A DNA stretch of 64,000 nucleotides from an uncultured Gemmatimonadaceae bacterium (GTDB lineage: Bacteria > Gemmatimonadota > Gemmatimonadetes > Gemmatimonadales > Gemmatimonadaceae). Location of the stretch: contig CAWAGQ010000004.1 in NCBI GenBank assembly GCA_963781585.1, forward strand, positions 320,001 to 384,000. Direction: 5' to 3'. This document shows, piece by piece, positions 24,511 to 44,623 of this stretch. The notes below the pieces were generated by a model. That model made no database searches, was not told where the DNA came from, and was given only the letters and a program-made list of their open reading frames with translations. Position 1 is the first letter of the stretch, and each line of letters begins with the position of its first letter. A program made the translations under genes and the position numbers.

Positions 24511-24934
24511 AGGGGACGCCGAGCAGGTTCTCCTGCTCGAACTCGCCGGCGCGCTGTACGCCGTCGACAGTGCCGCGGTGCGCGAAGTGATCCCGACGAC
24601 GCCCGCCACGCGGCTTCCCGGTGCCCCGGGGTACGTGCGCGGAATCATGAACCTCAGGGGGCAGCTGCTGACCGTGGTCGACCTCGTCCAGCGGTTGACG
24701 GGAGCCGCGACCTGCAACCCGGAGGGCTCCACGATCGTCGTCCAGTCAGGCGAGCGAATGCTCGGCCTGAGTGTGGATGATGTGCGCCAGGTGCATGCGG
24801 TGGCGGTCTCCGGGGCCGGTGGCGTGTCCATCGATTTCCCGGGCCTGGGTCTGGTTCGTGGACTGGGACGTTTCGGCGACGAAGTCGTCATTGTCCTCGA
24901 CGTGGACGAGATCGTACGGCAGACGCTGGCGTAA
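24497..24934 (+). CDS. cheW: CheW adaptor (1)
   Basis: VREVI...LPGAPGYVRGIMNLRGQLLTVVDL...GLSVDDV. Confidence 0.9.
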   Translation: MTEPEGDAEQVLLLELAGALYAVDSAAVREVIPTTPATRLPGAPGYVRGIMNLRGQLLTVVDLVQRLTGAATCNPEGSTIVVQSGERMLGLSVDDVRQVHAVAVSGAGGVSIDFPGLGLVRGLGRFGDEVVIVLDVDEIVRQTLA

Positions 24935-24972
24935 ACGCGGGGGCTCCGGGCTCCCGGCAGGGAGAGATCACA

Positions 24973-25335
24973 GTGAGCCACACGGTACTGATCTGCGACG
25001 ATGCCATCTTCATGCGCACGATGCTGGGTGACATCCTCCAGCAGGCGGGCTTCGAAGTCGTTGGCGAAGCCGAAACCGGAGCGCAGGCGGTGTCCAAGTA
25101 CCAGGAGCTGCGTCCCGACCTGGTGACGATGGACATCGTGATGCCCGACATGGGGGGGATCGACGCGGTTCGTGAGATCACGAAACGCGATCCGGCTGCC
25201 AAGGTCCTGATGTGCAGCGCGATGGGGCAGCAGGCGCTGGTGGTCGAGGCCATCCAGGCAGGGGCGAAGGACTTCGTCGTCAAGCCGTTCCAGCCGAGCC
25301 GAGTGCTGGAGGCGGTCAATCGGGTGTTGGGCTGA
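24973..25335 (+). CDS. cheY: CheY response regulator (Bacillus/Thermotoga-like)
   Basis: DDAIFMR, phosphoacceptor motif TMDIVMP, CSAMGQQ and KPF. Confidence 0.93.
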   Translation: MSHTVLICDDAIFMRTMLGDILQQAGFEVVGEAETGAQAVSKYQELRPDLVTMDIVMPDMGGIDAVREITKRDPAAKVLMCSAMGQQALVVEAIQAGAKDFVVKPFQPSRVLEAVNRVLG

Positions 25336-25526
25336 ACGGCGCGCCGCGCGTGGTGCCAGCCACCGGATCCTGACGTGGCCGGTTGGCCGCGCCCTTGGCC
25401 AGCCGCCCGGCCCCTCCAGCCTCCGAGAGCCGTCGTCCATGTGTTCGCCCGGGTTTCGGAACGCGCCCCGATCGATCCGCGCGCGATAGTCGAGCCGGCG
25501 TCACTGACCCCCTTCGGTCCCGACCC

Positions 25527-27431: not shown

Positions 27432-27502
27432 CGACATGGTGCGGAACGGTGAGGCTGCAGCCGCGCCGCTCAACGCGTGACACCCACGGTTGGAGAAACG
27501 GA

Positions 27503-28123
27503 ATGCAAGAGCTGCTGAGTCTCAAGCCGGTGCAGATCGACGCGCTGCGCGAGGTGGCCAACATCGGCGCGGGTCACGCGGCGACGGCGCTGTCGCAGAT
27601 GACATCGCAGCGGATCATGATCAGCGTGCCGCGAATCAGCGTCACGCCGCTGGAAGAGGTACCGCCGCATCTGGGCCCGCCCGAGGAGCCGGTGGCCGCC
27701 GTCCTCATGAACATGCTCGGCGACCTGACCGGTCGGACGCTGCTGGTCTTTCCGAAGTCCACCGCGCTGCGGCTGGCCGAGATCCTGTTGCACAAGCCGG
27801 CGGGCACGTTTTCCGAGCTGGGCGAACTGGAGCAGTCCGCGCTGCAGGAAGCGGGAAACATTCTGAGCGGCGCCTACATGAATGCGCTGAGCGACTTCAT
27901 GGGACTCCTCCTGTTGCCGTCGCCGCCCAGTCTGGCCATCGACATGTCGCGCGCCGTGCTGACGACGGCGTATCTGCAGTTCGGTGCCGATCCCAACTAC
28001 GTGTTCTGTGTCGAGACCGAATTCCTCATGCGCGACGCGAACGAGCGGCTGCGCGGGTTCTTTCTGCTGCTGCCGGACCTCGCGTCGCTGCAGAAGATTC
28101 TGCGGGCCGTGCGGCTCGCCTGA
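27503..28123 (+). CDS. cheC: CheC phosphatase
   Basis: Two D/S-x3-E-x2-N sites: DALREVANI and SALQEAGNI. Confidence 0.92.
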   Translation: MQELLSLKPVQIDALREVANIGAGHAATALSQMTSQRIMISVPRISVTPLEEVPPHLGPPEEPVAAVLMNMLGDLTGRTLLVFPKSTALRLAEILLHKPAGTFSELGELEQSALQEAGNILSGAYMNALSDFMGLLLLPSPPSLAIDMSRAVLTTAYLQFGADPNYVFCVETEFLMRDANERLRGFFLLLPDLASLQKILRAVRLA

Positions 28124-28159
28124 CGCGGCGGGCGTGCGCGTCTCCCCGGTGAACTGAGG

Positions 28160-30859
28160 ATGTCGCTTCCCACGGTGTTCCTCTCGGAGCGGGACCGCGA
28201 AGTCCTGCGGAGCTTCGCGCTGCGCGTCGACCCCGCGGATGCCGGATCGCACAACAACCTGGGCGTGCTCTACTACAACAAGGGCATGATCCCGGAGGCG
28301 GTCGAGGCTTTCACGCGCGCGCTCACCCTCGACCCGCAGATGTCGACCGCCGAACGCAATCTGCGCATCGCGTGGTGCGACAGCGGCGCCTTCGAAGAGC
28401 AGGTGAGGGCGCTTGGCGAACGTCTCGCGGCCGACGCGGCCGATCGGGACGCTCGTGACGCGCTGGCGAACGCGTATCTGATGGCCGGCGATTTCGACCG
28501 GGCGGTGGTGGAGCTTGAGCGGCTTGCCGACGCGCAGCCCGATGACGTGGACACCATCGTGCGCCTCGCCCGCGCGGAGCAGCGCCTCGGACATATGGAC
28601 GCGGCGTCGACCTGGCTGCGGCGCGCCCTCGGCTATCGCGAAAGCGACCCGCAGCTCCTGATGCAGTTCGCCGACGTCTCCTATCATCGCGGCCTCGATG
28701 CCGACGCTCTGGCGGCGCTGGAGCGGGTCGTGGAGCACGCCCCGCACCTGGCCGAGGCCCACTACCTGCTGGGGTTCGTGCTCGGTGATCTGGGACGGCA
28801 CGAGGAAGCGCGCGAAGCCACGCGGCGGGCGCTGCGGCTCAATCCGTCGTTAGGCAGGGCGCAGGCGAACCTGTCGCTGGGGCGTGACGGCCCGCTGGCG
28901 ACCCCGCCGGCCGAGGGCCACAACGAACCAGCACCCCTCGCAGGGGGCGCGCTGGCGCACTTCAATCTCGGCATCGCCTTTCGCCAGAAGGGCTACTACC
29001 AGGAGGCGCTCCGCGAGTATCGACTTGCCCTCGACCGCGGTGAAGATCGGGGCCTCGTCACCCAGGCGATGGCGGAAGTCCACCTCCTGACCCGCGAAAC
29101 CGGAGCGGCGGTCACGCTCTACGACCGGCTGGTTGGCAGCGCACCCGACAGCCCCAAGCTGTGGAACGAGCGCGGTGTGGTGCTGCATCAGGCCGGCCGG
29201 ATCGCGGACGCCCGCGCCAGCTACGAGCGCGCGGTCGGTGCGGATCCGGCCTATGCGCTCGCGCTGAACAACCTCGGTGTGGCACACTACCACGCCGGCC
29301 GCCACGATCTGGCGTGCGACGCGTTTCGCCAGTCCATGCTGGAGCAGCCGGCATTCGTCAAGGCCCGGCTCAACCTCGCGCTGCTGCTCTTCCGGCGGAA
29401 GGAGTTCGCGCTCTGCCTGGAAGCCTACCGACAGGTGCTGAATCTCGAGCCGGACCACGCGGTGGCGTGGAACGGCATCGGCCTGGTGCTCTCGGAACTG
29501 CACCAGATCGAGGATGCCCGCAACGCGTTCGGCCGCGCCATCGACGCGCGCCCCGACTACGCCGAGGCGCACTACAACCTCAGTTTCGCCCTGTCGCACC
29601 TCGGCGACTACGCCGGCGGCCTGCGCGAAACGAAACGCGCGCTGGAACTGGACCCGTTCTACGTTCCGCAGAAGTTCGAGCTCGCCATCGATCTCCAGTA
29701 CGAGAACCCGCGCGTGGCGATCGCACCGGAGCTGGGCGCCGACCAGCGACTGGACGGCGCGGTGGAAGAGTTCACGCTGGATGTCGGCGCGCTCGAGACC
29801 TTCTTCGACCAGCTGGCGCCCGCGACCCACGAGGAGCCGCCCGACGCTCCTGGCGGTCCGTCGTATGGGGTCGCGCGCGCGGCGGTGGCCGCGGGGCAGT
29901 TGCCGGCAGCTGCCGCCGAGACAAACCGTGTGCTCGCGGCCGGCGGAGCGCGTGGCGAGGGACTCGGGCTGCTCGGCGGCATCTTCATGCGACAGGGCGC
30001 GTTTGGCGAGGCCCTGGATCGCTTCCGTCAGGCGCGCACGGCGGACGCGACAGACCAGAGCGCGGCCATGGGTGAGGTGCGCGCGCTGCTGCTGCTGGGA
30101 CGTGGGAGCGAGGGGAGTGACCTGGCCGAGGACCTGGCCGCGCGGGCGGATTCCGATGTGGAGGCCCTGCTGCTGGTGGCGCAGGTGCGCGCCGAGCGGG
30201 GTGCACACGGCCCGGCCCTGGCTGCCCTCGATGCGGCGCGCCGCCTGGCTCCGGCGCGCGCCGACGTCCAGAAGGAGATCGGCGACGTGGCGCGTGCCAC
30301 CGGTGACGACGAGCGCGCGCTGGCGGCGTACCGCGCCGCGGTGGCGCTGGACCGCGGATTCGCGGCGGCGCGCGTGGAACTCGCAGCGTTGCTTCGTGGC
30401 CGGGGTAAGGTCGCCGAGGCCGAGCGGGAGCTGGAGGCAACGGTGCGCGATCTTCCGGCCTGTATGGACGCCGCGCTCGAGCTGGCCGACCTGCGCCGGG
30501 CACGGGGACGCCCCGAGGACACAATCGATGTCCTGGTGGAGGTCCTGCGTCGCGATCCGTACCAGCTGGACGTGCTCGTGTCGTTAGGCGAGTCGCTGTT
30601 CCAGTGCGACCGGCGGGGCGACGCCGCCGTGGCCTTCGCCCGGGTCCTCCGCTTCGACCCCGATCACGTGGGCGCCCTCTACTTCGACGGCGTGCTGCTC
30701 GGGAAGCAGCGGCGGTTCGAGGAGGCGGTGGCGCGCTGGCACCGGGTCATCGACCTCGAGCCGGCCAGCGACTACGCCAGGCGCGCGCGTCGCGACGCGC
30801 GGATCGCCGCAGACCTCCAGCGCATCTTCGTGGCGCACGAGCGCCGGGGAGCGGCCTAG
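28160..30859 (+). CDS. Large all-TPR protein (899 aa)
   Basis: Many TPR units (HNNLGVLY, HFNLGIAF, WNGIGLVL, HYNLSFAL); no signal peptide seen. Confidence 0.85.
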   Translation: MSLPTVFLSERDREVLRSFALRVDPADAGSHNNLGVLYYNKGMIPEAVEAFTRALTLDPQMSTAERNLRIAWCDSGAFEEQVRALGERLAADAADRDARDALANAYLMAGDFDRAVVELERLADAQPDDVDTIVRLARAEQRLGHMDAASTWLRRALGYRESDPQLLMQFADVSYHRGLDADALAALERVVEHAPHLAEAHYLLGFVLGDLGRHEEAREATRRALRLNPSLGRAQANLSLGRDGPLATPPAEGHNEPAPLAGGALAHFNLGIAFRQKGYYQEALREYRLALDRGEDRGLVTQAMAEVHLLTRETGAAVTLYDRLVGSAPDSPKLWNERGVVLHQAGRIADARASYERAVGADPAYALALNNLGVAHYHAGRHDLACDAFRQSMLEQPAFVKARLNLALLLFRRKEFALCLEAYRQVLNLEPDHAVAWNGIGLVLSELHQIEDARNAFGRAIDARPDYAEAHYNLSFALSHLGDYAGGLRETKRALELDPFYVPQKFELAIDLQYENPRVAIAPELGADQRLDGAVEEFTLDVGALETFFDQLAPATHEEPPDAPGGPSYGVARAAVAAGQLPAAAAETNRVLAAGGARGEGLGLLGGIFMRQGAFGEALDRFRQARTADATDQSAAMGEVRALLLLGRGSEGSDLAEDLAARADSDVEALLLVAQVRAERGAHGPALAALDAARRLAPARADVQKEIGDVARATGDDERALAAYRAAVALDRGFAAARVELAALLRGRGKVAEAERELEATVRDLPACMDAALELADLRRARGRPEDTIDVLVEVLRRDPYQLDVLVSLGESLFQCDRRGDAAVAFARVLRFDPDHVGALYFDGVLLGKQRRFEEAVARWHRVIDLEPASDYARRARRDARIAADLQRIFVAHERRGAA

Positions 30860-32005
30860 ATGGCGATCGAAGGCCCGCTCCGCGAGCTCGGCATCCACGA
30901 CGTCTTCCAGCTGCTCGACCTCAGCCGCAAGACAGGACGGCTGCGCGTCACCTCGGCCCTCCGCGACAACGAGGGCACGGTCACGTTTCACAACGGCCGC
31001 GTGGTCGGCGCGACCATCCGCACCAACCCGCACCCGATTGGCGAGATCCTCGTGAACGCCGGCAAGATCACCGCCGAGGAGCTGGATCGCGCGAAAGGGC
31101 TGCAGCGCCAGCCGGGTGAACAGCGGGCTCTCGGCGAGCTGCTGGTGAGCATCGGCGCCATCACCCAGCGCGAGCTGGAACGCCAGATCCGCCGGCAGAT
31201 CGAGGCGGTGGTGTTCGAGTTGATGTCGTGGCAGGAAGGATATTTCTGCTTCGCCGAAGGCGACCCCGGCGCCACCAACGGAGGCTGGCATGCCAGCCTC
31301 ACGGCAGAATCGCTGCTGATGGAAGCCGCTCGCCGAATCGACGAATGGACGCGGATTGCACACCGGATTCCGAGCATGACGGCACTGCCCGCCCTCGCCG
31401 ACGTGGATGGCGACCATCCGGCCTCCCTCGACCTGAGACCCAATGAGTGGGAGGTCCTGGCGCAGATCGACGGCGCGACCGACCTCCGGTCCATCGCCGA
31501 GCGGGTGGGGATGAGCGACTTCGACGTGGCCAAGGTGGTGTTCGGGTTGCTCTCGACCGGCGTGGTGACGCTGGTGGAGGGGCCGAGCGCGCCGCCGACG
31601 AACGACGCGAGGGACGACGCGGTCATGTTGCTCTCCGATGCGCGAGAGGCGCTTCGCGATACGCGCGCCAAGGACGCGCTGCAACACGCCGAGCGCGCGC
31701 TGCTCCTGTCGTCGGAGCTGGTCGAAGGCCGGATGGTGGCGGCACAGGCGCTGATCGCGCTCGAACGATTTGGCGAGGCGGAGCGACATCTCGAGCGCGC
31801 GCTGGAGACCGATCCGGACTCCGCGCAAGTGCTCATGACGCTCGCGCGACTCGCGGTCAGGCGCGGCGACCTCGATCGGGCCATCCAGGCCTGGTCGCGC
31901 GTCATCGAGACATCTCCGCAATCCGCGCAGGCCGAGCGCGCCCGCAAGGCGATGGCCTACGCCACTCGCCTGAACGCGCTCGTGGAGGTCGGCGGCGATG
32001 GTTGA
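30860..32005 (+). CDS. DUF4388 (PatA-N-like) plus TPR protein
   Basis: MAIEGPLRELGIHDVFQLL...KTGRL...WQEGYF.F...LLMEAARRIDEW, with TPRs at the C-terminus. Confidence 0.82.
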   Translation: MAIEGPLRELGIHDVFQLLDLSRKTGRLRVTSALRDNEGTVTFHNGRVVGATIRTNPHPIGEILVNAGKITAEELDRAKGLQRQPGEQRALGELLVSIGAITQRELERQIRRQIEAVVFELMSWQEGYFCFAEGDPGATNGGWHASLTAESLLMEAARRIDEWTRIAHRIPSMTALPALADVDGDHPASLDLRPNEWEVLAQIDGATDLRSIAERVGMSDFDVAKVVFGLLSTGVVTLVEGPSAPPTNDARDDAVMLLSDAREALRDTRAKDALQHAERALLLSSELVEGRMVAAQALIALERFGEAERHLERALETDPDSAQVLMTLARLAVRRGDLDRAIQAWSRVIETSPQSAQAERARKAMAYATRLNALVEVGGDG

Positions 32006-32870
32006 TATCGTGGGGCGGTGGACCGATGAGCTGGCGCGCAACCCGGATAGCCTCTCGTTCCTTCGGCTGGCTGACGAGCTCCGTCGCCGCCGTGCCCTTC
32101 CGGAGGCGCGGACGGTGGCCCTGCGCGGACTCGAACGACATCCGTATCTCGCAGACGCCCACGATATGCTCGCGCGCGTGTATGCCGATGATGGAGAGAC
32201 GCAACGCGCGCGCGACGAGTGGGAGATGGCTCTGCGCATCGATCCCGATCATCTGGAATCGCTGAAGGGGCTCGGATTCCTGGCGTTCGCGCGCGGAGAC
32301 CTGGCGGGCGCGGAACGGCACCTCCGCCGCGCCCGCTCCCAGGGCGATCCCGATGCCGGACTTGCCACTGCGCATCGACGCGTCATGGAGGCGATGCGCC
32401 GGGCGTCGCGCGGGCACCCCGAGGAGTCCGTCCCCCACAACGGGACTGGCACGGCGGCCCGCAACGGTAACGGGTCGCGACCCCGTGCGGCCGCACCACC
32501 GAACCGGGCACGCGAACTCTTCGCCCCCCTGCTCGGCGAAGAAGACGGCACGGCGCTGCTCATCGACGCGGACGGCCTCGTCATCGCTGGTGCGTACGTG
32601 GACGAAACGGGCCGTGAGATCGGCGACGAAATCGGCGCTGAACTCTCCGGCGTGAGTGACGAGGCGGCGCGAGCCCTGATCCACTTGCGGCTCGGGACCT
32701 GGGAATCGCTGCTGATCGAGGCGCAGCATGCCACAGTGGGACTGGCGCCGGCCAGAGACGGCGCCGTGGTACTCGTGGCGGCGGCGCGCGATGCACACGT
32801 CGGCCTGGTGCGCCGGCTGCTGATGCAGGCGCGTACTCGTGCGCGGACCTGGATGGCGGGTGCATCGTGA
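31998..32870 (+). CDS. TPR plus roadblock/LC7 fusion protein
   Basis: N-terminal TPRs; C-terminal ALLIDADGLVIAG...GLVRRLL roadblock pattern. Confidence 0.75.
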   Translation: MVDIVGRWTDELARNPDSLSFLRLADELRRRRALPEARTVALRGLERHPYLADAHDMLARVYADDGETQRARDEWEMALRIDPDHLESLKGLGFLAFARGDLAGAERHLRRARSQGDPDAGLATAHRRVMEAMRRASRGHPEESVPHNGTGTAARNGNGSRPRAAAPPNRARELFAPLLGEEDGTALLIDADGLVIAGAYVDETGREIGDEIGAELSGVSDEAARALIHLRLGTWESLLIEAQHATVGLAPARDGAVVLVAAARDAHVGLVRRLLMQARTRARTWMAGAS

Positions 32871-33214
32871 GCGGACCCTTCGACGCCATGCTGTCCGAGC
32901 TCGCGCGAGTGCGAGGCGTGCGCGCAGCCCTGCTGGCCACCGAGAGCGACGGGCTCGCGGCGGCAGGGATTGCGGCAACAGGGGTGCCCGAAGACGCGCT
33001 GGCCGCGTTTGGCATGGCGCTCCTGCGGCGGGCGCGGTTGGCGAACGAAGCGGCGGGATATGGCGCAACGCTGTTCGTGGCGCTGGATGCCGAGCACGGG
33101 CGGCTGCTTGTCGCCGCCCGCGGCGACCTCGCGATCGTAGTTCTGGCGGAGCGCGACGCCGGCACCGGTCTGGTGCGCATCGCCATGCTGCGTGCGATGA
33201 GCGGACTCCCGTGA
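32867..33214 (+). CDS. Roadblock/LC7 protein (MglB/MglC-like)
   Basis: LARVRGVRAALLATESDGL...GTGLVRIAM, 115 aa. Confidence 0.78.
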   Translation: MSGPFDAMLSELARVRGVRAALLATESDGLAAAGIAATGVPEDALAAFGMALLRRARLANEAAGYGATLFVALDAEHGRLLVAARGDLAIVVLAERDAGTGLVRIAMLRAMSGLP

Positions 33215-33666
33215 GCACGACCATGACCACCTTCACGGAACCCCTCCACGCGTTCGCCCACGATGCGCGGGTGCGGCTGGCCCTGGTGCTCGAATCCAGT
33301 GGACAGGTGCTCGCGCAGCACGGTTTCACACGGTCACTCGACGTCATGACCGCCTGTTCGCTTGCCGCAGCCATCCATGCCTCGGCTGCCGAGCTTGGTC
33401 GCGAACTCGGTGGGACAGCGTTCGGCCCGCTGCATCACGCCGGCGACGCGCGTCAGCTCTTTCTGGCGCCGGTCCTGTGCGGCGGCCGGACAATCCTGCT
33501 GCTGGCCGTGTTCGACGGGGCGAGCTCCCTCGGCATGGTCCGGCTGTTCTGGGCAGAGTTCGCACACCGCGTGGGCGATGCCATGGCGCCCCGGGCACGC
33601 GTCCAGGCCACGGAATTCGAGCGCGACCTCGAACACAACCTCGACGCGCTGTTCGGCAGGGTTTGA
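33211..33666 (+). CDS. mglB: Roadblock protein, probable MglB (GAP partner of MglA)
   Basis: LALVLESSGQVLAQHG...SLAA...AVFDGASSLGMVRL; lies immediately upstream of mglA. Confidence 0.8.
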   Translation: MSTTMTTFTEPLHAFAHDARVRLALVLESSGQVLAQHGFTRSLDVMTACSLAAAIHASAAELGRELGGTAFGPLHHAGDARQLFLAPVLCGGRTILLLAVFDGASSLGMVRLFWAEFAHRVGDAMAPRARVQATEFERDLEHNLDALFGRV

Positions 33667-33668
33667 CG

Positions 33669-34274
33669 ATGCCGGTCGTCAACTATCCGTCGCGCGAAAT
33701 TACCTGCAAGATCGTCTACTACGGGCCGGGACGTTCGGGCAAGACCACCAACCTGCAGTACATCCACACGCGGGTTCCGGAGGACCGGCGCGGCAGGATG
33801 GTCTCGGTGGCCACGCAGGGCGATCGCACGCTGTTCTTCGATTTTCTTCCGCTCGATCTGGGGAGCATCTCGGGCTTCACGACGCGATTCCAGCTATACA
33901 CCGTTCCGGGCCAGGTGTATTACCGGTCCACCCGTCGCCTGGTGCTGCGTGGCGCGGACGGCGTGGTGTTCGTCGCCGATAGCCAGCGCCGCCAACTCGA
34001 GGAGAATGTCGAGAGCCTCCGCGACCTGCACGAGTTGCTGGCCGAGCAGGACGTGGACCCGCGGAGCCTGCCTCTGGTCCTCCAGTACAACAAACAGGAC
34101 TTGCCACGGGATCTCATCCTGAACGCCGGCGAACTGGACGAGGCGCTCAATTTCCGGAGCGCGCCGAGCTTTGCGGCCGACGCCCTCGGTGGTGCCGGCG
34201 TCTTCGAAACCCTTCGCCGCATGTCCGAGCTGGTGCTGCGACGCCTCAGCGCGCCTGCAGCAGCCGGGAGATAG
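33669..34274 (+). CDS. mglA: MglA small Ras-like GTPase
   Basis: KIVYYGPGRSGKTTNL, RTLFFDFLP, LYTVPGQVYY, DGVVFVADSQ and NKQD. Confidence 0.95.
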   Translation: MPVVNYPSREITCKIVYYGPGRSGKTTNLQYIHTRVPEDRRGRMVSVATQGDRTLFFDFLPLDLGSISGFTTRFQLYTVPGQVYYRSTRRLVLRGADGVVFVADSQRRQLEENVESLRDLHELLAEQDVDPRSLPLVLQYNKQDLPRDLILNAGELDEALNFRSAPSFAADALGGAGVFETLRRMSELVLRRLSAPAAAGR

Positions 34275-34277
34275 CAC

Positions 34278-36068
34278 GTGATCGACGGCCGCTTTCGCTT
34301 CGACAACTTCATCGTCGGCGCGTCCAATCGCCTGGCGGTGTCGGCGGCGCGCGCGGTGGCCGAAACGCCCGGCGTGGTCTACAACCCGCTGGTCATCTAC
34401 AGCGCGTCCGGCCTGGGAAAGACGCACCTGCTGGCCGCGCTTGGCTACGCCACGCGCGAACTGCACCCCGAGCGCGACGTGGAGTACCTGACGCTCGAAC
34501 GCTTCGTGGACGAACTGCATGCCGCGGTCGCCAGCGGACGCCCCGATGCCCAGTTGCGGCGCTACCAGCACGTCCAGACGCTGCTGCTGGACGACGTGCA
34601 GTTTCTCACCGGACGGGTCGAGACGCAGACGGAACTCCTCCGCATCTTCAACGCGGTTCAGGAGAATGGCGGACAGATCGTGATGACGAGCGATCGGCCG
34701 CCGGCGGAGATCGGCGACGTCGATGCGCGGCTCCTGAGCCGGATGTCGGGCGGCCTGATCGTCGACATCGGCGAACCGGAGTACGAGACCCGGGTCGCGA
34801 TTCTCCGTCACAAGTGCGCCGAGCGAGGGCTGACCTTTGTGCCCGGTGTACTCGAGCAGCTGGCGAGCGCGCCGGCCGGGAGCGTGCGCGAACTCCAGGG
34901 GGCCCTGAATCGGGTTGCGGCACAGCAGTCCATCAGCGACGCGCCGCTCGGGATTCAGGACGTGCGCGTTGCCCTGGCAGGACGGAGCGAAGAGGGACCG
35001 GACGATGAGTACCAGAGCTTCCTGAACGAGGTCGCGGCGACAGTATCGCTGACGGTCGATCCGTGGCGCATCCGGCTGGGAGAAATGGTGTCTCGCTGGA
35101 GCGGCGAAGGGTTTCAGACCACGATGCTGGAGCGTGCGATGGCGGCCAGCGAGGCCCCCGATATCGATGCGCTCGATGCCCGGTTCGCCGCGGCCGCTGC
35201 GCGACTACGGGCGCTCGAAGCCGAAGCGGCCCGTCTCGATCCGAAGCTCATCGAGCTGGCGGCCTTTCGCGATCCCGAACGGGTGGCCGACGCCGAGACG
35301 GTCGTGCTGCGCGCGCTGGCCGCCTACGATCCGCCCCCCGGCCCCGACCGGCGCTTCGGCATCGAACAGTTCGTCGTGGGGGAGCGCAATCGCCTCGCGC
35401 TGCGCGGCGCGGCGGAAGTGATCGCCGTGCCGGGGGCGCGGTACAATCCGCTCTACATCCACGGCGCCACGAGTTCCGGCAAGACACACCTCCTGCACGC
35501 CATCGGCAACGCGCTGGCGGCGCGCGACGGCGGCGGGTGGACGGTCGCCTGTGTCACGGCCCAGCAGTTCACCGATGGACTGATCGAAGCCATCCAGGAG
35601 GCCGAGCTCGAGCGCTGGCGCATGCGGTACCGGGCGGTCGACGCGCTGCTGATCGATGACGCCCAGGCGCTCAGCGGCAAGGAGCGGTCGCAGGACGAGC
35701 TCTTCCATCTCTTCAACGCCTTTCATGACAGCGGCAAGCAGATCGTGCTCGCCGCGGACGTGGCGCCGTCCCAGCTGGTGGAGCTTGCGGCCCGGCTGCG
35801 CTCCCGCTTCGAGGGGGGGCTGGTGGTCGAGCTGGGTCGCGTGTCGCGGGCCGAGCGGGTGGCGCGCTACACGCCCGTCCCTATCGGTGCGGAGGCGGCC
35901 GCCCCCACCATCGACGCCTGGTTCGAAGAGGCGGTCGAGTCACCGCCCGATGCACTGGCCAGCCAGCTCGAGTCGTTAGGCGGCGTCGACTTCTTCTTCC
36001 TCGATCCCGAGAAGTGCATCACCGAATGGCCGGGTGTGGACGGACGCATCATCGAGGAGCTTCGCTGA
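34278..36068 (+). CDS. Protein with two tandem DnaA-type AAA+ domains, lacking DnaA domains I and IV
   Basis: Domain 1: FDNFIVGASN..YNPL..SASGLGKT..LLLDDVQ..RLLSR..VRELQGAL. Domain 2: FVVGERN..YNPL..GATSSGKT..LLIDDAQ..RLRSRF. Confidence 0.88.
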   Translation: MIDGRFRFDNFIVGASNRLAVSAARAVAETPGVVYNPLVIYSASGLGKTHLLAALGYATRELHPERDVEYLTLERFVDELHAAVASGRPDAQLRRYQHVQTLLLDDVQFLTGRVETQTELLRIFNAVQENGGQIVMTSDRPPAEIGDVDARLLSRMSGGLIVDIGEPEYETRVAILRHKCAERGLTFVPGVLEQLASAPAGSVRELQGALNRVAAQQSISDAPLGIQDVRVALAGRSEEGPDDEYQSFLNEVAATVSLTVDPWRIRLGEMVSRWSGEGFQTTMLERAMAASEAPDIDALDARFAAAAARLRALEAEAARLDPKLIELAAFRDPERVADAETVVLRALAAYDPPPGPDRRFGIEQFVVGERNRLALRGAAEVIAVPGARYNPLYIHGATSSGKTHLLHAIGNALAARDGGGWTVACVTAQQFTDGLIEAIQEAELERWRMRYRAVDALLIDDAQALSGKERSQDELFHLFNAFHDSGKQIVLAADVAPSQLVELAARLRSRFEGGLVVELGRVSRAERVARYTPVPIGAEAAAPTIDAWFEEAVESPPDALASQLESLGGVDFFFLDPEKCITEWPGVDGRIIEELR

Positions 36069-37684
36069 TGGCCATCCGCGGCAGTCTCCGGGAAGCGAGC
36101 CTCCCCGATGTCCTCCAGCTGCTCGCCATGGGGAAGAAGACCGGCTGCCTCTCGGTCACCCACCGTCAGAGCTTCGGGACGATCTTCTTCGACAGTGGAC
36201 GCATCTGCTACGCCTCGATCGTCAACCGGCGTGACCGGCTCGGCGATCTGCTCCTGAAGCACGGCCTGATCACCCGTCCGCAGCTCGACGCCGCCGTCGC
36301 CGAACAAGTCGACCGACCCGACCGGCGTCTCGGTGAGATCCTCATCGCCGACGGCCTCCTGCAACCCGAGCAGTTGCGGGAGTACATCACCCATCAGATC
36401 CAGGAAGCAGTCTACTTCCTGTTCACCTGGACGCAGGGGACGTTCAGCTTCGAGCCCGATGTGCGCCCCGACACCCGGGACCTCCTGGTGTCGATCGGCC
36501 CCGAGTCCCTGCTGCTCGAGGGAGCGAGACGGGTGGACGAATGGAGTCTGATCGAAAAGAAGATTACCAGCTTCGATCTCATCTTCGCCCTCGATCGCGA
36601 GCACCTGACCGAAAGCCACGTCGACCTGACGCCCGAACAGGAGATTCTCGTTCCGCTCCTCGACGGACAGCGCGATGTCAGCGCGCTCACGGAAGAAACC
36701 GGGATGGACGACTTCGAGGTGGGCAAGGCGCTGTTCGGACTCCTCTCTGCCGGTTTCCTGCATCGCGCGGGACGCAGCACCGGCCCCGAGACCGTTGCCG
36801 GCGAGTCCCGCATCCTCGAGCACCGCAACCTCGGAGTCGCGTTCTACAGGACAGGCATGTACGACGAGGCGCTCCGCGAGTTCCGGCGGGTCGTCGAGCT
36901 GCAGCCGGGGGACCAGGTCGCAGAATTCCACATCGGTCTGGTGGCGCTGCGCCAGGACCGCCTGGATGACGCGATCCGCACATTTCGCGCGATTGGCGCT
37001 CGTGAGGCGGCACCGGCCTCGGTGTTCGTCAATCTCGCCCACGCCCTCGAGCGGTCGGGTCGATACGACGAGGCCCGCGCCGCGCTGGACGACGCGGAGC
37101 GGTTGCAGCCGCAGGAGCCGATGAGCGAGCTCGCACACGGCGTGCTGTCGTTGCGCCGGGGCGATGTGGAGGGCGCAGATCGACACCTGCAGTGTGCCGC
37201 CGAACGGTGGGGCGGGAAGGCGCGACCGGCAGCATGGTTTCACTACGCCGGTCTGGTGGCGGCGCTGCGCGGCGAGCTCGATCGAGCCACGGAGGTTCTG
37301 GAGCACGGGGTGGTGGCGTATCCACACGTCGCCGCACTGTACAACAACCTGTCCGTTGCCCTGGAGCGTCGCGGGCGCTACGCGGAAGCGTTGGCGGCGG
37401 CAGAGCGGGGGAGCGTGGAAGATCCGGCGCTGCCGCAGCTCCACAAGAACCTCGGCGATCTGCAGTACCGCGCCGGGCACTACGACGAGGCGCTCGACGC
37501 CTATCAGCGTGCGGTCCGGTACGACCCGGAGCTGGGCGGCGACGTCCATCTGAAGATGGGGAACGTGCGGTATCGACGCGGCGAGCGCGACGATGCGATG
37601 CGCTGCTGGGAGCGTTCGCTCTCGCTTGCGCCGGACAATCCCATGGCGAGGAACAACCTCGAGACCGCGCGACGGCTGACGTGA
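36068..37684 (+). CDS. DUF4388 plus MshEN-like motif plus TPR protein
   Basis: GSLREASLPDVLQLL..KKTG; tandem RLG..LL..GLI motifs; LLEGARRVDEW; multiple TPRs. Confidence 0.85.
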   Translation: MAIRGSLREASLPDVLQLLAMGKKTGCLSVTHRQSFGTIFFDSGRICYASIVNRRDRLGDLLLKHGLITRPQLDAAVAEQVDRPDRRLGEILIADGLLQPEQLREYITHQIQEAVYFLFTWTQGTFSFEPDVRPDTRDLLVSIGPESLLLEGARRVDEWSLIEKKITSFDLIFALDREHLTESHVDLTPEQEILVPLLDGQRDVSALTEETGMDDFEVGKALFGLLSAGFLHRAGRSTGPETVAGESRILEHRNLGVAFYRTGMYDEALREFRRVVELQPGDQVAEFHIGLVALRQDRLDDAIRTFRAIGAREAAPASVFVNLAHALERSGRYDEARAALDDAERLQPQEPMSELAHGVLSLRRGDVEGADRHLQCAAERWGGKARPAAWFHYAGLVAALRGELDRATEVLEHGVVAYPHVAALYNNLSVALERRGRYAEALAAAERGSVEDPALPQLHKNLGDLQYRAGHYDEALDAYQRAVRYDPELGGDVHLKMGNVRYRRGERDDAMRCWERSLSLAPDNPMARNNLETARRLT

Positions 37685-38196
37685 CGACCCGGACCGCCAC
37701 TCCTGCCGACGCCGCAGCGGGCGCCGAGATCGTGGTCAACGTCGCCGACTTCGGCGTGGCGCGCGAGCACGGCGTGCTCGCGACGTCAGGACTGGGATCG
37801 TGCGTGGCGATCATCATCTGCGATCGCATCGCACGGGTCGCGGCCATGGCGCACATTCTGCTTCCGGAACCGGACTTCCGTCGAGGGTCGCCCAATCCGG
37901 CAAAGTACCCGCAGACGGCCGTGCCGATGCTGCTCGACGAAATGCACCGGCTGGGCGCGATGGGGCCCTTCGAAGCGAAGCTGGCCGGAGGCGCAAGCAT
38001 GTTCGGCGCCCTGCTCGCAAGCGGCGTGAACATGGGTGAGCGCAACGTCGAGGCGTCGCGCCGGGCATTGGCGGATGCGCGCATCGCGCTGGTGGCCGAA
38101 GACGTGGGCGGAGGTCATGGACGGAGCGTGTTCGTGGACGTCGCGTCGGGGCGCGTGCGGGTGAGTTCTCTCCAGCGGGGCGACCGTGTCCTCTGA
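37681..38196 (+). CDS. cheD: CheD glutamine deamidase
   Basis: GLGSCVAI (catalytic Cys), AHILLP, AKLAGGASMF, GERN and DVGG.HGR. Confidence 0.92.
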   Translation: MTTRTATPADAAAGAEIVVNVADFGVAREHGVLATSGLGSCVAIIICDRIARVAAMAHILLPEPDFRRGSPNPAKYPQTAVPMLLDEMHRLGAMGPFEAKLAGGASMFGALLASGVNMGERNVEASRRALADARIALVAEDVGGGHGRSVFVDVASGRVRVSSLQRGDRVL

Positions 38197-39286
38197 ACGC
38201 CGCACGGTGCTGGTCGTCGACGACAGCGCGCTCGTCTGCCGCGTGGTCGCCGACCTGATCGAGGCCAGTGCCGACTTCCGCGTGGCCGGCATCGCCCGTG
38301 ACGGCTTGGACGCCATTCGCAAGCTGCACAGCCTCGAGCCCGACCTCGTCACGCTCGACGTGCAGATGCCGGATCTCGACGGCCTGCAGACACTCGGCTA
38401 CATCATGAGCGAGGCGCCGCGACCCGTGATCATGCTCAGCGCGCTGGATTCGCTGGGCGGTGCGGATCTGACCATCAGGGCGCTCGAGCTGGGTGCGGTG
38501 GATTTCGTGCGCAAGACCGGGCCTGACGACGCGCTCGATCCGAGAACGCTCCGCGATCGTCTGCTTCGGGCGCTCCGGGGGGCGCGAAACGTGAACCTCC
38601 GCGCCGCATCGGTGCTGGCCCGGCCGCTCGCCGCCCGCAAGTCCGCGCGCCCGGGTGAGAAGCCCGCCACTCATGTCGTGGCGATCGCCGCGTCCACCGG
38701 AGGGCCGCGGGCGCTCGCCGAAATACTGCCGGCGCTTCCCGGAGACCTCGGTGCGGCGGTTCTGGTGGTGCAGCACATGCCGGCCGGGTTCACTGAGAGC
38801 CTGGCGCGCCGCCTCGACCGTCTCGCATCACTTGCCGTGGGCGAGGCGGTAGACGGGGAGGTCCCGCTTGCCGGCCATGCCTACATCGCGCCGGGGGGCC
38901 GCCATCTGACGCTCAGTCGTGACGGTGGGGCCACGCGCCTGGCGGTCGGCGCCGGTGCCGCTGTTCGCGGAGCGCGACCGTCGGCCGACCTGCTGTTCGA
39001 CTCGGTCGCCGAACATCTCAGGGCGGCGGCGGTGGGTGTGGTACTCACCGGGATGGGGCACGACGGCGCCGCGGGCCTGAAGCGCATGCGTGGCGCGGGC
39101 GCCTACGCCCTCGTTCAGGATCGCGGGACCTCCACCGTATACGGCATGCCGATGACGGCGCTCGCACACGCCGGTGCAGATCGGGTGGTGCCGCTGTCGG
39201 AGATGGCGCCCGCGATCCTGGCCGCCCTGGAGGCGCGGGGAATGACGCGCCGCGATGTGACCACCGAAGATCCGATTCTGTCCTGA
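38186..39286 (+). CDS. cheB: CheB methylesterase with receiver domain
   Basis: Receiver (VVDDS, LDVQMP); catalytic ASTGGP, QHMP and GMGHDGA. Confidence 0.95.
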   Translation: MSSERRTVLVVDDSALVCRVVADLIEASADFRVAGIARDGLDAIRKLHSLEPDLVTLDVQMPDLDGLQTLGYIMSEAPRPVIMLSALDSLGGADLTIRALELGAVDFVRKTGPDDALDPRTLRDRLLRALRGARNVNLRAASVLARPLAARKSARPGEKPATHVVAIAASTGGPRALAEILPALPGDLGAAVLVVQHMPAGFTESLARRLDRLASLAVGEAVDGEVPLAGHAYIAPGGRHLTLSRDGGATRLAVGAGAAVRGARPSADLLFDSVAEHLRAAAVGVVLTGMGHDGAAGLKRMRGAGAYALVQDRGTSTVYGMPMTALAHAGADRVVPLSEMAPAILAALEARGMTRRDVTTEDPILS

Positions 39287-39355
39287 GTAGGGAGCGGGGG
39301 TGGGTCCGGATCTCCGGTTCACCACCCCGCGCCTTCGTATCCGATCCACCTGTCG

Positions 39356-39886
39356 ATGCCCGAATCCGACGTGCTCCAGAACGTTGCTCCGCCAGCCCCG
39401 CCGCATGACGCATCGCCGCTGCGTTTTCGCGAGCGCGTGCGGCAGCGCATCGGCACGGCCGACCTTCTGCTCTTCCGGGTGGGACGGGAGGGGTTCGGAA
39501 TCGAGATTCGCGCGGTGGACGAAGTAGTGGAGTCGCCGCGACTGCGGGTTCTTCCCGATGCCCCGGCGACGCTGCTCGGCGTATTCACGCTGCGCGAGCA
39601 GCTGCTCCCGCTGTACGCGGCATCGCTGGTGCTCGGTCAGGAAGCCGAGGCGCCGGACCTGGCACTCGTCATGCGCAGCGGATTGCGGCGGGTGGGGCTG
39701 GCGGTGGACGACGTGGAAGAAGTTGTGGCCGTTTCCATGACCGACCTGCGGGATCCGCCTCCGGGAATTGGCGACGACGATGTTGTGGCCGGACTGGTCT
39801 GGCGCGATGGCCGGATCATCACCGTGCTCGATGCCCGCGCCCTGGTTGCGGCATGCGCCTCGGTGGCGCATCCGGCGGTTCCATGA
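39356..39886 (+). CDS. cheW: CheW adaptor (2)
   Basis: LLFRVGREGFGI..VDEV...LPDAP..LLGVFTLR...GLAVDDV. Confidence 0.82.
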   Translation: MPESDVLQNVAPPAPPHDASPLRFRERVRQRIGTADLLLFRVGREGFGIEIRAVDEVVESPRLRVLPDAPATLLGVFTLREQLLPLYAASLVLGQEAEAPDLALVMRSGLRRVGLAVDDVEEVVAVSMTDLRDPPPGIGDDDVVAGLVWRDGRIITVLDARALVAACASVAHPAVP

Positions 39887-40359
39887 CCACCATGACCGGC
39901 AGCTCGCGCATCATCACGTTCCGTCTCGGCGACGATCTGTTCGCGGCCGACATCTTCGCCGTGGAGCGGGTGCTGCGATACGACGCGCCCCGGGCAATCC
40001 CGAACGTACCCGACTGGATCCGCGGCGTGATCGAGTACCAGGGGCGCGTCGTGCCGGTCGTGGACCTCCGGCGTCGCTTCGGCCTTCCCGAGGCCGACGT
40101 TGGTCCGCAGGCCCGGATGCTGGTCCTCTCGTCAGGCGGGGAGTGGGTGGCGGTCATCGTCGACCTGGTTCTCGACGTGCGGCCACTCGAGGAGGCGGCA
40201 CTGTCGCCGCCGCCCGCGCTGTTCCGCGGGCTGGCCGGCGAATACCTGCGGGGTCTGACGCGTCGGGGAGAGTCGCTGGTGGTTGTGCTGGACGTGGACC
40301 GCCTGCTCTCCAGTCAGGACCGGCTGGTGCTGGCGCCCGCCCGGGGGGCGGATGCCTGA
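39883..40359 (+). CDS. cheW: CheW adaptor (3)
   Basis: ITFRLG...IPNVPDWIRGVIEYQGRVVPVVDLRRRF. Confidence 0.9.
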   Translation: MTTMTGSSRIITFRLGDDLFAADIFAVERVLRYDAPRAIPNVPDWIRGVIEYQGRVVPVVDLRRRFGLPEADVGPQARMLVLSSGGEWVAVIVDLVLDVRPLEEAALSPPPALFRGLAGEYLRGLTRRGESLVVVLDVDRLLSSQDRLVLAPARGADA

Positions 40360-44593: not shown

Positions 44594-44623
44594 TTGACGA
44601 ATTGCCGTCTGGGTCGCTAGGTT
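44594..44623 (+). promoter_or_regulatory. Probable sigma70 promoter of the dcw operon
   Basis: TTGACG-18 bp-TAGGTT. Confidence 0.55.

What the first reader, a model, noticed from the sequence alone, without database searches (positions are those of the whole stretch)
34278..36068. Tandem double DnaA-type AAA+ protein with no DNA-binding domain, directly after mglA
Seen: two copies of the DnaA domain III signature joined by a helical linker of roughly 120 aa. Each copy has F..F.VG..N, YNPL, Walker A (SASGLGKT / GATSSGKT), Walker B (LLLDDVQ / LLIDDAQ) and the arginine-finger box (RLLSR / RLRSR). Only copy 1 keeps the sensor-II lid (VRELQGAL). Copy 2 stops after the arginine finger and ends in an acidic/aromatic tail (DFFFLDPEK..EW...IIEELR). 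There is no domain I, no domain IV helix-turn-helix and no Hda-type N-terminal clamp-binding motif. Inference: this is not a replication initiator. It may be a co-opted nucleotide switch or scaffold, or a pre-formed pseudo-dimer that caps or modulates DnaA filaments and so couples polarity signalling to replication.
Basis: partly seen in the sequence, partly recalled or inferred. Interest (0 to 1): 0.85.

Follow-up and report, generated by a model that had tools for sequence, protein, structure and literature searches.

The report
DnaA-derived double ATPase in MglA operon
A conserved protein of the phylum Gemmatimonadota is built from two copies of the ATPase core of the replication initiator DnaA but has none of DnaA's DNA-recognition parts, and it sits inside a cell-polarity (MglA / chemotaxis-like) operon, so an initiator ATPase seems to have been recruited to a polarity switch.

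Summary
ORF 34278-36068 (+, 596 aa) carries two Bac_DnaA (DnaA domain III) modules. They are joined by a ~110-aa helical domain with no detectable relative, and the protein ends in a conserved C-terminal motif. There is no domain I, no domain IV and no Hda signature. In 7 of 7 related loci mglA lies directly upstream, and a PATAN-TPR gene follows in 4 of 4 loci with room.

New points:
- Module 1 keeps every catalytic motif (Walker A Lys in 105 of 105).
- Module 2 is decaying. Its Lys is lost in 38 of 105, its lid is lost in the window's lineage, and the whole module is absent in 7 of 150 cluster representatives.
- Module 2 nevertheless keeps its arginine finger and several residues that contact single-stranded DNA in DnaA.
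- A complex prediction with MglA gave weak support only (0.60; best control 0.00).

Best reading (confidence 0.5): an ATP-driven component of the MglA/Che-like polarity module, not an initiator. A role as a DnaA modulator is not excluded. I found no published description.

The parts
34278..36068 (+). Gene for the tandem DnaA-domain-III protein (596 aa, GTG start, TGA stop)
34278..34982 (+). Module 1 (res 1-235): complete DnaA domain III (IIIa plus lid IIIb) with all catalytic motifs
   Evidence: Bac_DnaA 172.1 bits. TIGR00362 254.9 bits. B. subtilis DnaA 8bv3 E 2.3e-52. Fold match TMt 0.94, rmsd 1.6.
34401..34424 (+). Module 1 Walker A SASGLGKT (res 42-49)
   Evidence: K48 conserved in 105 of 105
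34581..34601 (+). Module 1 Walker B LLLDDVQ (res 102-108)
   Evidence: D105 and D106 each conserved in 104 of 105
34728..34742 (+). Module 1 box VII RLLSR (res 151-155). R155 aligns with the B. subtilis arginine finger R264.
   Evidence: R155 in 97 of 105, R151 in 86 of 105. Mapping by the gapless alignment and PMC10721633.
34884..34907 (+). Module 1 sensor II VRELQGAL (res 203-210)
   Evidence: R204 in 95 of 105
35004..35333 (+). Helical linker domain (res 243-352), specific to this family, fold with no known relative
   Evidence: pLDDT 89.7, pTM 0.73 when folded alone. Best PDB match E 2.9. hhalign against DnaA 0.4%. No Pfam or NCBIfam family. Atlas: no usable hit.
35334..35867 (+). Module 2 (res 353-530): DnaA domain IIIa only, lid lost. 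Walker A and B are still intact in this genome.
   Evidence: Bac_DnaA 173.5 bits. TIGR00362 192.0 bits. T. maritima DnaA 2z4r E 2.6e-37. The profile match ends at position 174 of 235.
35463..35486 (+). Module 2 Walker A GATSSGKT (res 396-403)
   Evidence: K402 kept in only 67 of 105 family members
35793..35807 (+). Module 2 box VII RLRSR (res 506-510)
   Evidence: R506 and R510 each in 96 of 105, and each in 37 of the 38 members whose module 2 P-loop is dead
35868..35969 (+). Low-confidence, variable spacer (res 531-564)
   Evidence: pLDDT 44-60. Length of the 518-571 region varies from 26 to 141 residues in the family.
35970..36065 (+). Conserved C-terminal motif (res 565-596: D.FFLD.EK..-.W P...GR..EE..), with a fixed end of chain
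   Evidence: E578 in 101, W584 in 101, R590 in 95, E593 in 96 of 105. 98 of 105 proteins end exactly 2 residues after the EE/ED pair. Low pLDDT in the monomer model.
33669..34274 (+). mglA (Ras-like GTPase), 3 nt upstream of the gene
   Evidence: Arf/Ras/Roc matches. 73-78% identical copies directly upstream of the tandem gene in 7 of 7 loci. Start fixed.
33223..33666 (+). Third roadblock-like gene (147 aa)
   Evidence: Robl_LC7 22.5 bits, just under the cut-off of 23. Conserved at 41-51% identity in 7 of 7 loci.
32867..33214 (+). Roadblock/LC7 protein (MglB-like)
   Evidence: present in 6 of 7 loci at the threshold used
31998..32870 (+). TPR plus roadblock protein
30860..32005 (+). PATAN (DUF4388) plus TPR protein
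28160..30859 (+). Large TPR protein (899 aa)
36068..37684 (+). PATAN (DUF4388) plus TPR protein. Its ATG overlaps the stop of the tandem gene.
   Evidence: Follows the tandem gene in 4 of 4 loci with room.
24497..28123 (+). Upstream Che-like genes: CheW-like 24497-24934, CheY 24973-25335, CheA 25383-27431, CheC 27449-28123
   Evidence: CheW-like and CheY were named from the translations and not scanned.
37684..40359 (+). Downstream Che-like genes: CheD (start uncertain, ends 38196), CheB 38186-39286, CheW 39356-39886, CheW 39853-40359

Best explanation
The gene encodes a cytoplasmic ATP-driven component of the MglA / chemotaxis-like polarity module of Gemmatimonadota. It descends from the ATPase core (domain III) of DnaA but is no longer an initiator.

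Shown:
- The constant parts of the family are module 1 (a fully competent DnaA-type ATP site with lid), a family-specific helical domain, and a C-terminal motif at a fixed chain end.
- Module 2 is a decaying duplicate. It has lost its lid here, its P-loop in about a third of the members sampled, and the whole module in a minority.
- The gene is translationally coupled to mglA upstream and to a PATAN-TPR gene downstream.

Inferred:
- ATP binding and hydrolysis at module 1 switch the protein between assembly states. Arginine fingers from module 2, or from a neighbouring molecule, complete the site, as in DnaA oligomers.
- The switch is read by, or acts on, MglA.
- The flexible C-terminal motif docks the protein onto a partner encoded in the operon. 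The many TPR proteins there are the obvious candidates for binding a free acidic C-terminus.
- The outcome would be ATP-dependent assembly or resetting of a polar complex that controls motility or the polar (budding) growth of these bacteria.
For: Identity and architecture.

Family, not artefact:
- 30 of 30 hits whose source name carries a taxon are Gemmatimonadota (11, 10, 9; lineage of Longimicrobiales checked).

Synteny:
- mglA directly upstream in 7 of 7 loci, at 45-58% identity of the tandem protein.
- The 147-aa roadblock-like gene upstream of mglA in 7 of 7 loci.
- PATAN-TPR, CheD and CheB downstream in 4 of 4 loci with room.
- A 3-nt gap to mglA and a 1-nt overlap with the next gene.

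Asymmetry of the modules (105 sequences chosen by me and not phylogenetically independent):
- K48 105 of 105, D105 104 of 105, R204 95 of 105.
- Against K402 67 of 105 and D461 52 of 105.
- R510 96 of 105.

Single-module variants with linker and tail are 7 of 150 cluster representatives. Their module sits in the copy-1 clade at two or more places.

The tail is conserved, ends the chain at a fixed place in 98 of 105 and is not docked in the monomer model (pLDDT 44-60).

MglA binding, complex prediction: weak support.
- Score 0.60 (runs 0.65, 0.60, 0.59); best of 3 controls 0.00.
- The mark was reached by 116 of 157 solved complexes and 2 of 215 mismatched pairs.
- A score at or under 0.60 was seen in only 18 of those 157 solved complexes and in both mismatches that passed.
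- The runs agree in at least 70% of contacts, and the partner's pLDDT is at least 80.
- My own alignments were used, so the counts hold only roughly. No interface was given.

No defence-system match beyond a generic 28-bit AAA hit.
Against: - No experiment exists; function rests on gene order and conservation.
- The MglA prediction is only a weak pass.
- Context is known for 7 loci only, all Gemmatimonadales or unclassified Gemmatimonadota. The Longimicrobiales branch and the single-module variants have no context data.
- A pure polarity role does not explain why both arginine fingers persist in members whose module 2 site is dead (R155 in 37 of 38, R510 in 37 of 38).
- It also does not explain why module 2 keeps counterparts of the B. 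subtilis single-strand-DNA residues: I190 28 of 39, R202 36 of 39, E228 38 of 39.
- Nor does it explain why module 1 stays 41% identical to DnaA by fold alignment.
- The operon lies between DivIVA and the dcw division cluster, which would suit a cell-cycle role as well.
- The idea that the tail docks on a TPR protein was not tested.
Confidence: 0.5

Rival explanations
1. It is a modulator of the real DnaA. It would join or cap the DnaA-ATP oligomer at the origin, or stimulate DnaA-ATP hydrolysis with one of its arginine fingers in the way Hda does. MglA and the Che-like pathway would control it, so that replication initiation is tied to cell polarity.
For: - Module 1 is far closer to DnaA than Hda is: TIGR00362 254.9 bits against Hda model 86.3 bits; PDB DnaA hits at E 1e-52 against Hda structures at E 3e-8.
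- Both arginine fingers are kept even where module 2 cannot bind nucleotide. This fits an arginine finger that works on another protein's ATP site.
- Module 2 keeps most counterparts of the residues that hold single-stranded DNA in the B. subtilis DnaA filament.
- The operon neighbours division genes.
Against: - No domain I and no room for an N-terminal clamp-binding motif: 7 residues precede the AAA+ core.
- The gene is never seen next to dnaA or dnaN in the 7 loci or in the window. There is no other DnaA-like sequence in the 64 kb.
- Module 1 has lost the counterparts of I190 (hydrophobic in 62 of 62 canonical DnaAs; His and other residues in module 1) and of R206 (Arg in 60 of 62 against 6 of 41).
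Confidence: 0.2
2. It binds single-stranded or distorted DNA through the initiator-specific surface kept in module 2, without sequence recognition. It would tether the chromosome, or a DNA-processing step, to the polar MglA complex.
For: Module 2 carries I436, I439, R448, K468 and E474 at the positions of B. subtilis I190, I193, R202, K222 and E228. Family-wide, I or V is kept in 28 of 39, R in 36 of 39 and E in 38 of 39.
Against: - The Asn187 counterpart is absent in 0 of 39 and 0 of 41 modules.
- The Lys222 counterpart is basic in only 18 of 39.
- Module 2 is missing altogether in 7 of 150 cluster representatives.
- DnaA needs its box-binding domain to nucleate on DNA, and that domain is absent.
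- The residues may be kept for packing or for protein contacts.
Confidence: 0.1
3. It is an ordinary or mis-assembled dnaA: a true initiator, a pseudogene or a chimera.
For: One source labels many family members 'chromosomal replication initiator protein DnaA'. The whole protein scores 441.3 bits on TIGR00362, above the cut-off of 343.9.
Against: - The score passes only because two modules add up: 254.9 and 192.0 bits, each under the cut-off.
- Domains I and IV are absent.
- The architecture recurs in hundreds of independent assemblies.
- Both copies form their own clades apart from canonical DnaA: 97* and 98* SH-aLRT in IQ-TREE quick, and 97* for copy 2 in FastTree.
Confidence: 0.01

Closest known systems
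DnaA, domain III (bacterial replication initiator AAA+ core)
   Same: Both modules match Bac_DnaA end to end. Module 1 superposes on B. subtilis DnaA domain III with TMt 0.94 and rmsd 1.6 A. Walker A and B, sensor I and box VII are present in both modules, and sensor II in module 1.
   Different: Two modules in one chain. No domain I, II or IV. Extra helical domain and C-terminal motif. Encoded in an mglA operon rather than at dnaA-dnaN.
Hda / HdaA (DnaA-related inactivator of DnaA-ATP)
   Same: A DnaA-domain-III paralogue without a DNA-recognition domain that keeps an arginine finger. It is the precedent for a non-initiator job of this fold.
   Different: Scores under the Hda equivalog cut-off: 161.7 bits for the whole protein and 86.3 / 82.2 for the halves, against 194.8. 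No N-terminal extension for a clamp-binding motif (the motif itself is recalled). Tandem rather than single. Much closer to DnaA than to Hda.
DnaC / DnaI / IstB (other members of the initiator clade)
   Same: Weak matches to IstB_IS21 (58.6 bits) and to the DnaI and DnaC models. They show that this clade is reused for ATP-controlled assembly on partners.
   Different: These scores are far below those for DnaA and below the curated cut-offs of the NCBIfam models. No helicase-binding or transposase-linked context.
Tandem (type II) AAA+ proteins such as p97/Cdc48, NSF, Rix7
   Same: Two AAA+ modules in one chain, one of them often catalytically weak.
   Different: Only distant whole-chain matches (TMq 0.26-0.31, rmsd 17.7-21.9 A, 12-15% identity). 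The modules here belong to the initiator type, which is expected to form open spirals rather than closed rings (this expectation is recalled).
MglA/MglB polarity modules with PATAN and TPR partners
   Same: mglA with roadblock (MglB-like) and PATAN genes. A published survey notes PATAN genes near some Group 1 mglA genes and lists 'PATAN>MglA>-PATAN>' for Gemmatimonas aurantiaca T-27 (PMC4316618: passages, supplementary Table S2 row).
   Different: That paper does not mention DnaA: 0 occurrences in the main text and 0 in the 3 supplementary files searched, with 1 file not searched. No AAA+ partner of MglA is known to me (recalled).

Membership tests
DnaA (replication initiator, TIGR00362 / Pfam DnaA_N + Bac_DnaA + Bac_DnaA_C) | AAA+ domain III (Bac_DnaA) | tested here: met
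   Two stretches, E 5e-102; 172.1 and 173.5 bits for the halves
DnaA (replication initiator) | C-terminal helix-turn-helix domain IV that reads DnaA boxes (Bac_DnaA_C) | tested here: not met
   No Pfam hit at E <= 1 in linker or tail. hhalign of linker and tail against full-length DnaA 0.4% and 0.2%. Linker fold has no PDB match at E <= 0.001.
DnaA (replication initiator) | N-terminal domain I (DnaA_N) and linker domain II | tested here: not met
   The protein starts 7 residues before the first conserved Phe of domain III. 100 of 105 relatives have at most 11 residues there. No DnaA_N hit.
DnaA (replication initiator) | One module reaching the equivalog cut-off (343.9 bits) | tested here: not met
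   Halves score 254.9 and 192.0 bits. The whole protein passes at 441.3 bits only by addition.
Hda / HdaA | Score at or above the TIGR03420 cut-off (194.8 bits) | tested here: not met
   161.7 bits for the whole protein; 86.3 and 82.2 bits for the halves
Hda / HdaA | N-terminal clamp-binding motif ahead of a single AAA+ module | tested here: not met
   There is no N-terminal extension and there are two modules. The motif consensus is recalled, not taken from a call.
AAA+ initiator clade (DnaA/DnaC/IstB/Orc type) | Fold of the DnaA-type AAA+ core including the helical insert | tested here: met
   8bv3_A TMt 0.94, rmsd 1.6 A over 233 columns; 2z4r_A TMt 0.89. Gapless sequence alignment to B. subtilis DnaA 112-332.
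AAA+ initiator clade | ATP-dependent oligomerisation through a trans arginine finger | not testable with these tools
   Arginines are conserved but no coordinates or assays were available. pTM 0.49 leaves the arrangement of the two modules open.
Tandem classical AAA+ unfoldases (p97/NSF type) | Two classical-clade modules forming stacked hexameric rings | tested here: not met
   Whole-chain matches only at TMq 0.26-0.31 and rmsd 17.7-21.9 A. Both modules are DnaA-type.
MglA partner / effector | Conserved co-location with mglA | tested here: met
   7 of 7 loci; 3-nt spacing in the window
MglA partner / effector | Physical binding to MglA | tested here: inconclusive
   Complex prediction gave weak support: 0.60 against a best control of 0.00, with the calibration caveats given in the For line
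Anti-phage defence systems (PADLOC) | Match to a defence-system protein model | tested here: not met
   Only mad8 at 28.3 bits with no stretch passing on its own

The most novel reading that the evidence does not exclude
The protein is a DnaA mimic controlled by a polarity GTPase. When MglA and the Che-like pathway signal, its ATP-bound module 1 and the DNA-facing surface of module 2 insert into or cap the DnaA-ATP filament on unwound origin DNA, or its arginine finger fires DnaA's ATPase. In these budding bacteria, chromosome replication would then be licensed by the state of the cell pole. That would be a direct molecular link between a Ras-like polarity switch and the replication initiator.
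Probability: 0.12. Interest if true: 0.9.

Novelty: new variant of a known kind. Interest (0 to 1): 0.7.

Why it matters
DnaA domain III is known almost only from replication: DnaA itself, Hda and the helicase loaders. Here a whole bacterial phylum keeps a paralogue of it under selection inside a small-GTPase polarity operon. The paralogue has its own extra domain and a docking motif, and its second module can be followed through successive stages of decay.

If the best reading is right, it adds an ATPase to the MglA switch, which has so far been described with GTPase regulators only. It also gives a clean case of an initiator core being reused.

If the bolder reading is right, it offers a testable handle on how polarity and replication are coupled outside the Caulobacter model.

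There is a practical point too. Automated annotation calls many of these proteins 'chromosomal replication initiator protein DnaA' because two modules add up past the model's cut-off. This can mislead origin and dnaA assignments in Gemmatimonadota genomes.

Tried and rejected
- the diverse alignment A1 was too variable for the locus search. I replaced it with the closer alignment A2.
Only 7 of the 80 loci kept are the tandem family. The other 73 served as the canonical DnaA set for trees.
Taxon names come only from the name columns.
- the ESM Atlas gave no usable hit for the linker.
- I tested whether the linker is a degenerate domain IV or domain I of DnaA and rejected the idea (hhalign 0.4%; no fold match).
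- defence-system membership rejected.
- Tree placement: the TPR-fused and MshEN-fused DnaA-III proteins (P0230, P0240, P0176, P0184) do not fall in the family's clades. I do not use them as fusion evidence for this family's partners.
- Slip: I gave window:33261-33668, which is out of frame. The 'no family, not conserved' result for that stretch is void. The real gene is 33223-33666.
- Searches were input errors, corrected and 71/72.
Full report
**1. The observation**

ORF 34278-36068 on the + strand encodes 596 residues from a GTG start.
- Pfam finds Bac_DnaA twice (E 5e-102). Scanned separately, the halves score 172.1 and 173.5 bits.
- DnaA_N and Bac_DnaA_C are not among the families found.
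- The linker (res 236-349) and the tail (res 531-596), scanned alone, give nothing significant in Pfam at E <= 1 and nothing in NCBIfam.
- The two halves are 41% identical (72 of 177, E 1e-38), and the window holds no other DnaA-like sequence.
- The gene starts 3 nt after the TAG of mglA, behind a GGGAGA. Its TGA overlaps the ATG of the next gene by one base.

**2. A family, not an artefact**

- The best 120 relatives are 52-95% identical, and 118 of them cover at least 99% of the query.
- A search of one representative per 50%-identity cluster found 19,213 proteins at E <= 0.001.
- I classified the best 150 of those with my own profiles of the AAA module (A), linker (L) and tail (T):

| Architecture | Count of 150 |
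|---|---|
| A-L-A-T | 51 |
| A-L-A | 11 |
| A-A-T | 6 |
| A-A | 5 |
| A-L-T (one module, apparently complete chains) | 7 |
| A-L | 14 |
| L-A-T | 7 |
| A-T | 2 |
| L | 1 |
| A (single AAA module only, mostly canonical DnaA) | 46 |

- The A-L and L-A-T classes are probably fragments.
- Every source name that carries a taxon points to Gemmatimonadota: 11, 10 and 9, which is 30 of 30. They cover Gemmatimonadaceae, Gemmatimonadales and Longimicrobiales (lineage checked).
Presence outside the phylum is therefore not excluded.

**3. Context**

All 7 are Gemmatimonadota metagenome-assembled genomes.
- mglA (73-78% identical) lies directly upstream in 7 of 7.
- A 147-aa roadblock-like gene lies before mglA in 7 of 7.
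- A PATAN-TPR gene, CheD and CheB follow in the 4 of 4 loci whose contig reaches that far. The other 3 loci have no room.
- In the window the run of close-packed + strand genes is: CheW-like, CheY, CheA, CheC, TPR, PATAN-TPR, TPR-roadblock, roadblock, roadblock-like, MglA, the tandem protein, PATAN-TPR, CheD, CheB, CheW, CheW.
- It lies between YggS/DivIVA and the dcw division cluster.

**4. Anatomy and its evolution**

I aligned 105 family members. I chose them, and they are not phylogenetically independent.

Module 1 is fully conserved:
- Walker A Lys in 105 of 105.
- Walker B Asp-Asp in 104 of 105 each.
- Sensor I Asp in 97 of 105.
- Box VII R151 in 86 and R155 in 97 of 105.
- Sensor II Arg in 95 of 105.

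Module 2 is decaying:
- Walker A Lys in 67 of 105.
- Walker B Asp in 73 and 52 of 105.
- Its box VII arginines, however, stand at 96 of 105 each.

In the 38 members with a dead module 2 P-loop, R155 and R510 are each kept in 37 of 38.

Module 2 matches the whole domain III, lid included, in 15 of 40 copy-2 modules examined: 5 of 5 loci and 10 of 35 proteins. In the window and the rest it matches only the core. The missing lid is therefore a secondary loss.

Seven representatives lack module 2 altogether but keep linker and tail. Their single module belongs to the copy-1 clade, in both the Gemmatimonadaceae-like and the Longimicrobiales-like parts of it. Module 2 was therefore lost more than once.

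The AlphaFold model is confident for both modules and the linker: mean pLDDT 87.8, and above 90 for residues 260-520. It is not confident about their mutual arrangement (pTM 0.49) or about the tail (pLDDT 44-60).

The linker folded alone is a confident helical domain (pLDDT 89.7, pTM 0.73) with no PDB match (best E 2.9).

The tail is conserved: E578 and W584 in 101 each, R590 in 95 and E593 in 96 of 105. The chain ends exactly two residues after the EE/ED pair in 98 of 105. This is the signature of a docking peptide whose free end matters (inference).

**5. Relation to DnaA and Hda**

- Each half scores far higher on the DnaA model (254.9 and 192.0 bits) than on the Hda model (86.3 and 82.2 bits). 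Each is below both curated cut-offs.
- The whole protein passes the DnaA cut-off (441.3 against 343.9) only because two modules add up. This explains the 'replication initiator' labels in one source.
- Solved relatives: B. subtilis DnaA (E 2.3e-52) for module 1, T. maritima and A. aeolicus DnaA (about 1e-37) for module 2, and Hda structures only at about 3e-8.
- Fold search: 8bv3 TMt 0.94, rmsd 1.6 A.
- On trees of the AAA core, copy 1 and copy 2 each form their own group apart from 31-62 canonical DnaAs. FastTree with 144 rows gave copy 2 39 of 40 behind a 97* branch and copy 1 41 of 42 at support 87. IQ-TREE quick with 75 rows gave 97* for 21 copy-1 rows and 98* for 21 copy-2 rows.
- The Gemmatimonadales-like and Longimicrobiales-like subgroups recur in both copies. 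The duplication therefore predates their split.
- The root is unknown, so I cannot say whether the two copies are sisters.
- I had no Hda sequences for the tree. The Hda comparison rests on the model scores.

**6. Is there any DNA-binding capacity?**

The box-reading domain is absent. PMC10721633 (passages read) names the B. subtilis domain III residues that hold the single strand: N187, I190, I193, R202, K222 and E228. It reports I190A as defective in single-strand binding and names R264 as the arginine finger.

I mapped these residues using the gapless alignment and the half-to-half alignment:
- Module 1 of the window has D, H, V, L, R, E at these positions.
- Module 2 has D, I, I, R, K, E.

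Across the family, against 62 canonical DnaAs:

| B. subtilis position | Canonical DnaA (of 62) | Module 2 (of 39) | Module 1 (of 41) |
|---|---|---|---|
| I190 | hydrophobic in 62 | I or V in 28 | mostly His or polar |
| R202 | R or K in 56 | R in 36 | R or K in 33 |
| E228 | E in 57 | E in 38 | E in 29 |
| N187 | N in 48 | N in 0 | N in 0 |

The ATP-competent module has therefore lost the key single-strand residue, while the decaying module keeps most of that surface. No explanation accounts for this cleanly. It keeps the DNA-related rivals alive.

**7. MglA binding**

One complex prediction was run: the family alignment together with an 8-row MglA alignment. It returned weak support.
- Score 0.60 (runs 0.65, 0.60, 0.59); best of 3 controls 0.00.
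- The mark was reached by 116 of 157 solved complexes and 2 of 215 mismatched pairs.
- Scores at or under 0.60 belonged to only 18 of those 157 solved complexes and to both mismatches that passed.
- The runs agree in at least 70% of contacts, and the partner's pLDDT is at least 80.
- My own alignments were used, so the counts hold only roughly. No interface was reported.
- I know of no solved small-GTPase/DnaA-type complex that could have been remembered (recalled).

**8. Mechanism**

I commit, at 0.5, to the following. It is an ATP-driven component of the MglA/Che-like polarity module. Module 1 is the switch, module 2 is a decaying partner that still lends an arginine finger and a surface, the helical domain is family-specific, and the C-terminal motif is a tether to an operon partner. 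TPR proteins are the obvious candidates for that partner, but this was not tested.

The rivals are a DnaA modulator (0.2) and a single-strand DNA tether (0.1). A true initiator or an artefact (0.01) is excluded by the data.

**9. Prior knowledge**

Searches found no paper describing a tandem DnaA-domain protein or a DnaA-like gene in an mglA operon. These searches cover open-access papers and bioRxiv only.

The survey of prokaryotic small GTPases (PMC4316618; passages, supplement rows) contributes the following:
- It places Group 1 MglA in Gemmatimonadetes.
- It notes PATAN genes near some mglA genes.
- It lists 'PATAN>MglA>-PATAN>' for Gemmatimonas aurantiaca T-27.
- The parts of the legend I saw do not define the dash. 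I read it as an unnamed gene.
- DnaA is not mentioned in its text or in the 3 supplementary files searched; 1 file could not be searched.

For the PATAN papers I saw only search listings.

**10. Limits**

- Context comes from 7 loci.
- There are no names for most relatives.
- There are no model coordinates and no experiments.
- The conservation counts come from a hand-picked, phylogenetically redundant sample.

Noticed in passing
window 19030-22570: The isoleucyl-tRNA-synthetase-like gene appears as two overlapping ORFs in different frames (19030-20580 and 20390-22570). They match the first and second halves of the tRNA-synt_1 profile. This is a frameshift or a sequencing error.
   Followed up: no
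window 24497-40359: The Che-like cluster has three CheW-type genes, CheY, CheA, CheC, CheD and CheB. I found no receptor (MCP) or CheR gene among the ORFs scanned, although CheB and CheD normally act on receptors.
   Followed up: partly
window 16967-18201 and 44622-53334: The MglA/Che-like operon lies between YggS-like and DivIVA genes upstream and the dcw division/cell-wall cluster downstream: RsmH, FtsI-type PBP, MurE, MurF, MraY, MurD.
   Followed up: partly
window 33223-33666: There is a third roadblock-like gene (147 aa). It scores Robl_LC7 22.5 bits, just under the cut-off of 23, and is conserved at 41-51% identity in 7 of 7 loci. With 32867-33214 and the C-terminus of 31998-32870, the operon has three roadblock domains.
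   Followed up: yes
proteins P0230, P0240, P0176, P0184, P0205 (library, no names): Other non-canonical DnaA-domain-III architectures exist: 1754-2150-aa TPR arrays ending in one Bac_DnaA module; 1876-1990-aa proteins with an MshEN domain and two Bac_DnaA modules; and a 673-aa protein with two Bac_DnaA modules plus the DnaA helix-turn-helix. Their modules fall outside this family's clades.
   Followed up: partly
protein P0130 (674 aa): This is a low-GC relative with the family's linker. Its first module groups with the copy-1 clade (95*), while its second module sits among canonical DnaAs and is fully intact. It has a different C-terminus. It may be an early or foreign branch of the family; its origin is unknown.
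   Followed up: partly
window 34278-36068 and relatives: Annotation trap: the two modules add up to 441.3 bits on the DnaA equivalog model (cut-off 343.9), although each alone fails it. Many relatives are labelled 'chromosomal replication initiator protein DnaA' by one source.
   Followed up: yes
window 37192-38196: The longest ORF holding the CheD domain (domain at residues 223-325 of 334) overlaps the end of the preceding PATAN-TPR gene by about 490 nt. The true CheD start is probably much further downstream and was not determined.
   Followed up: no
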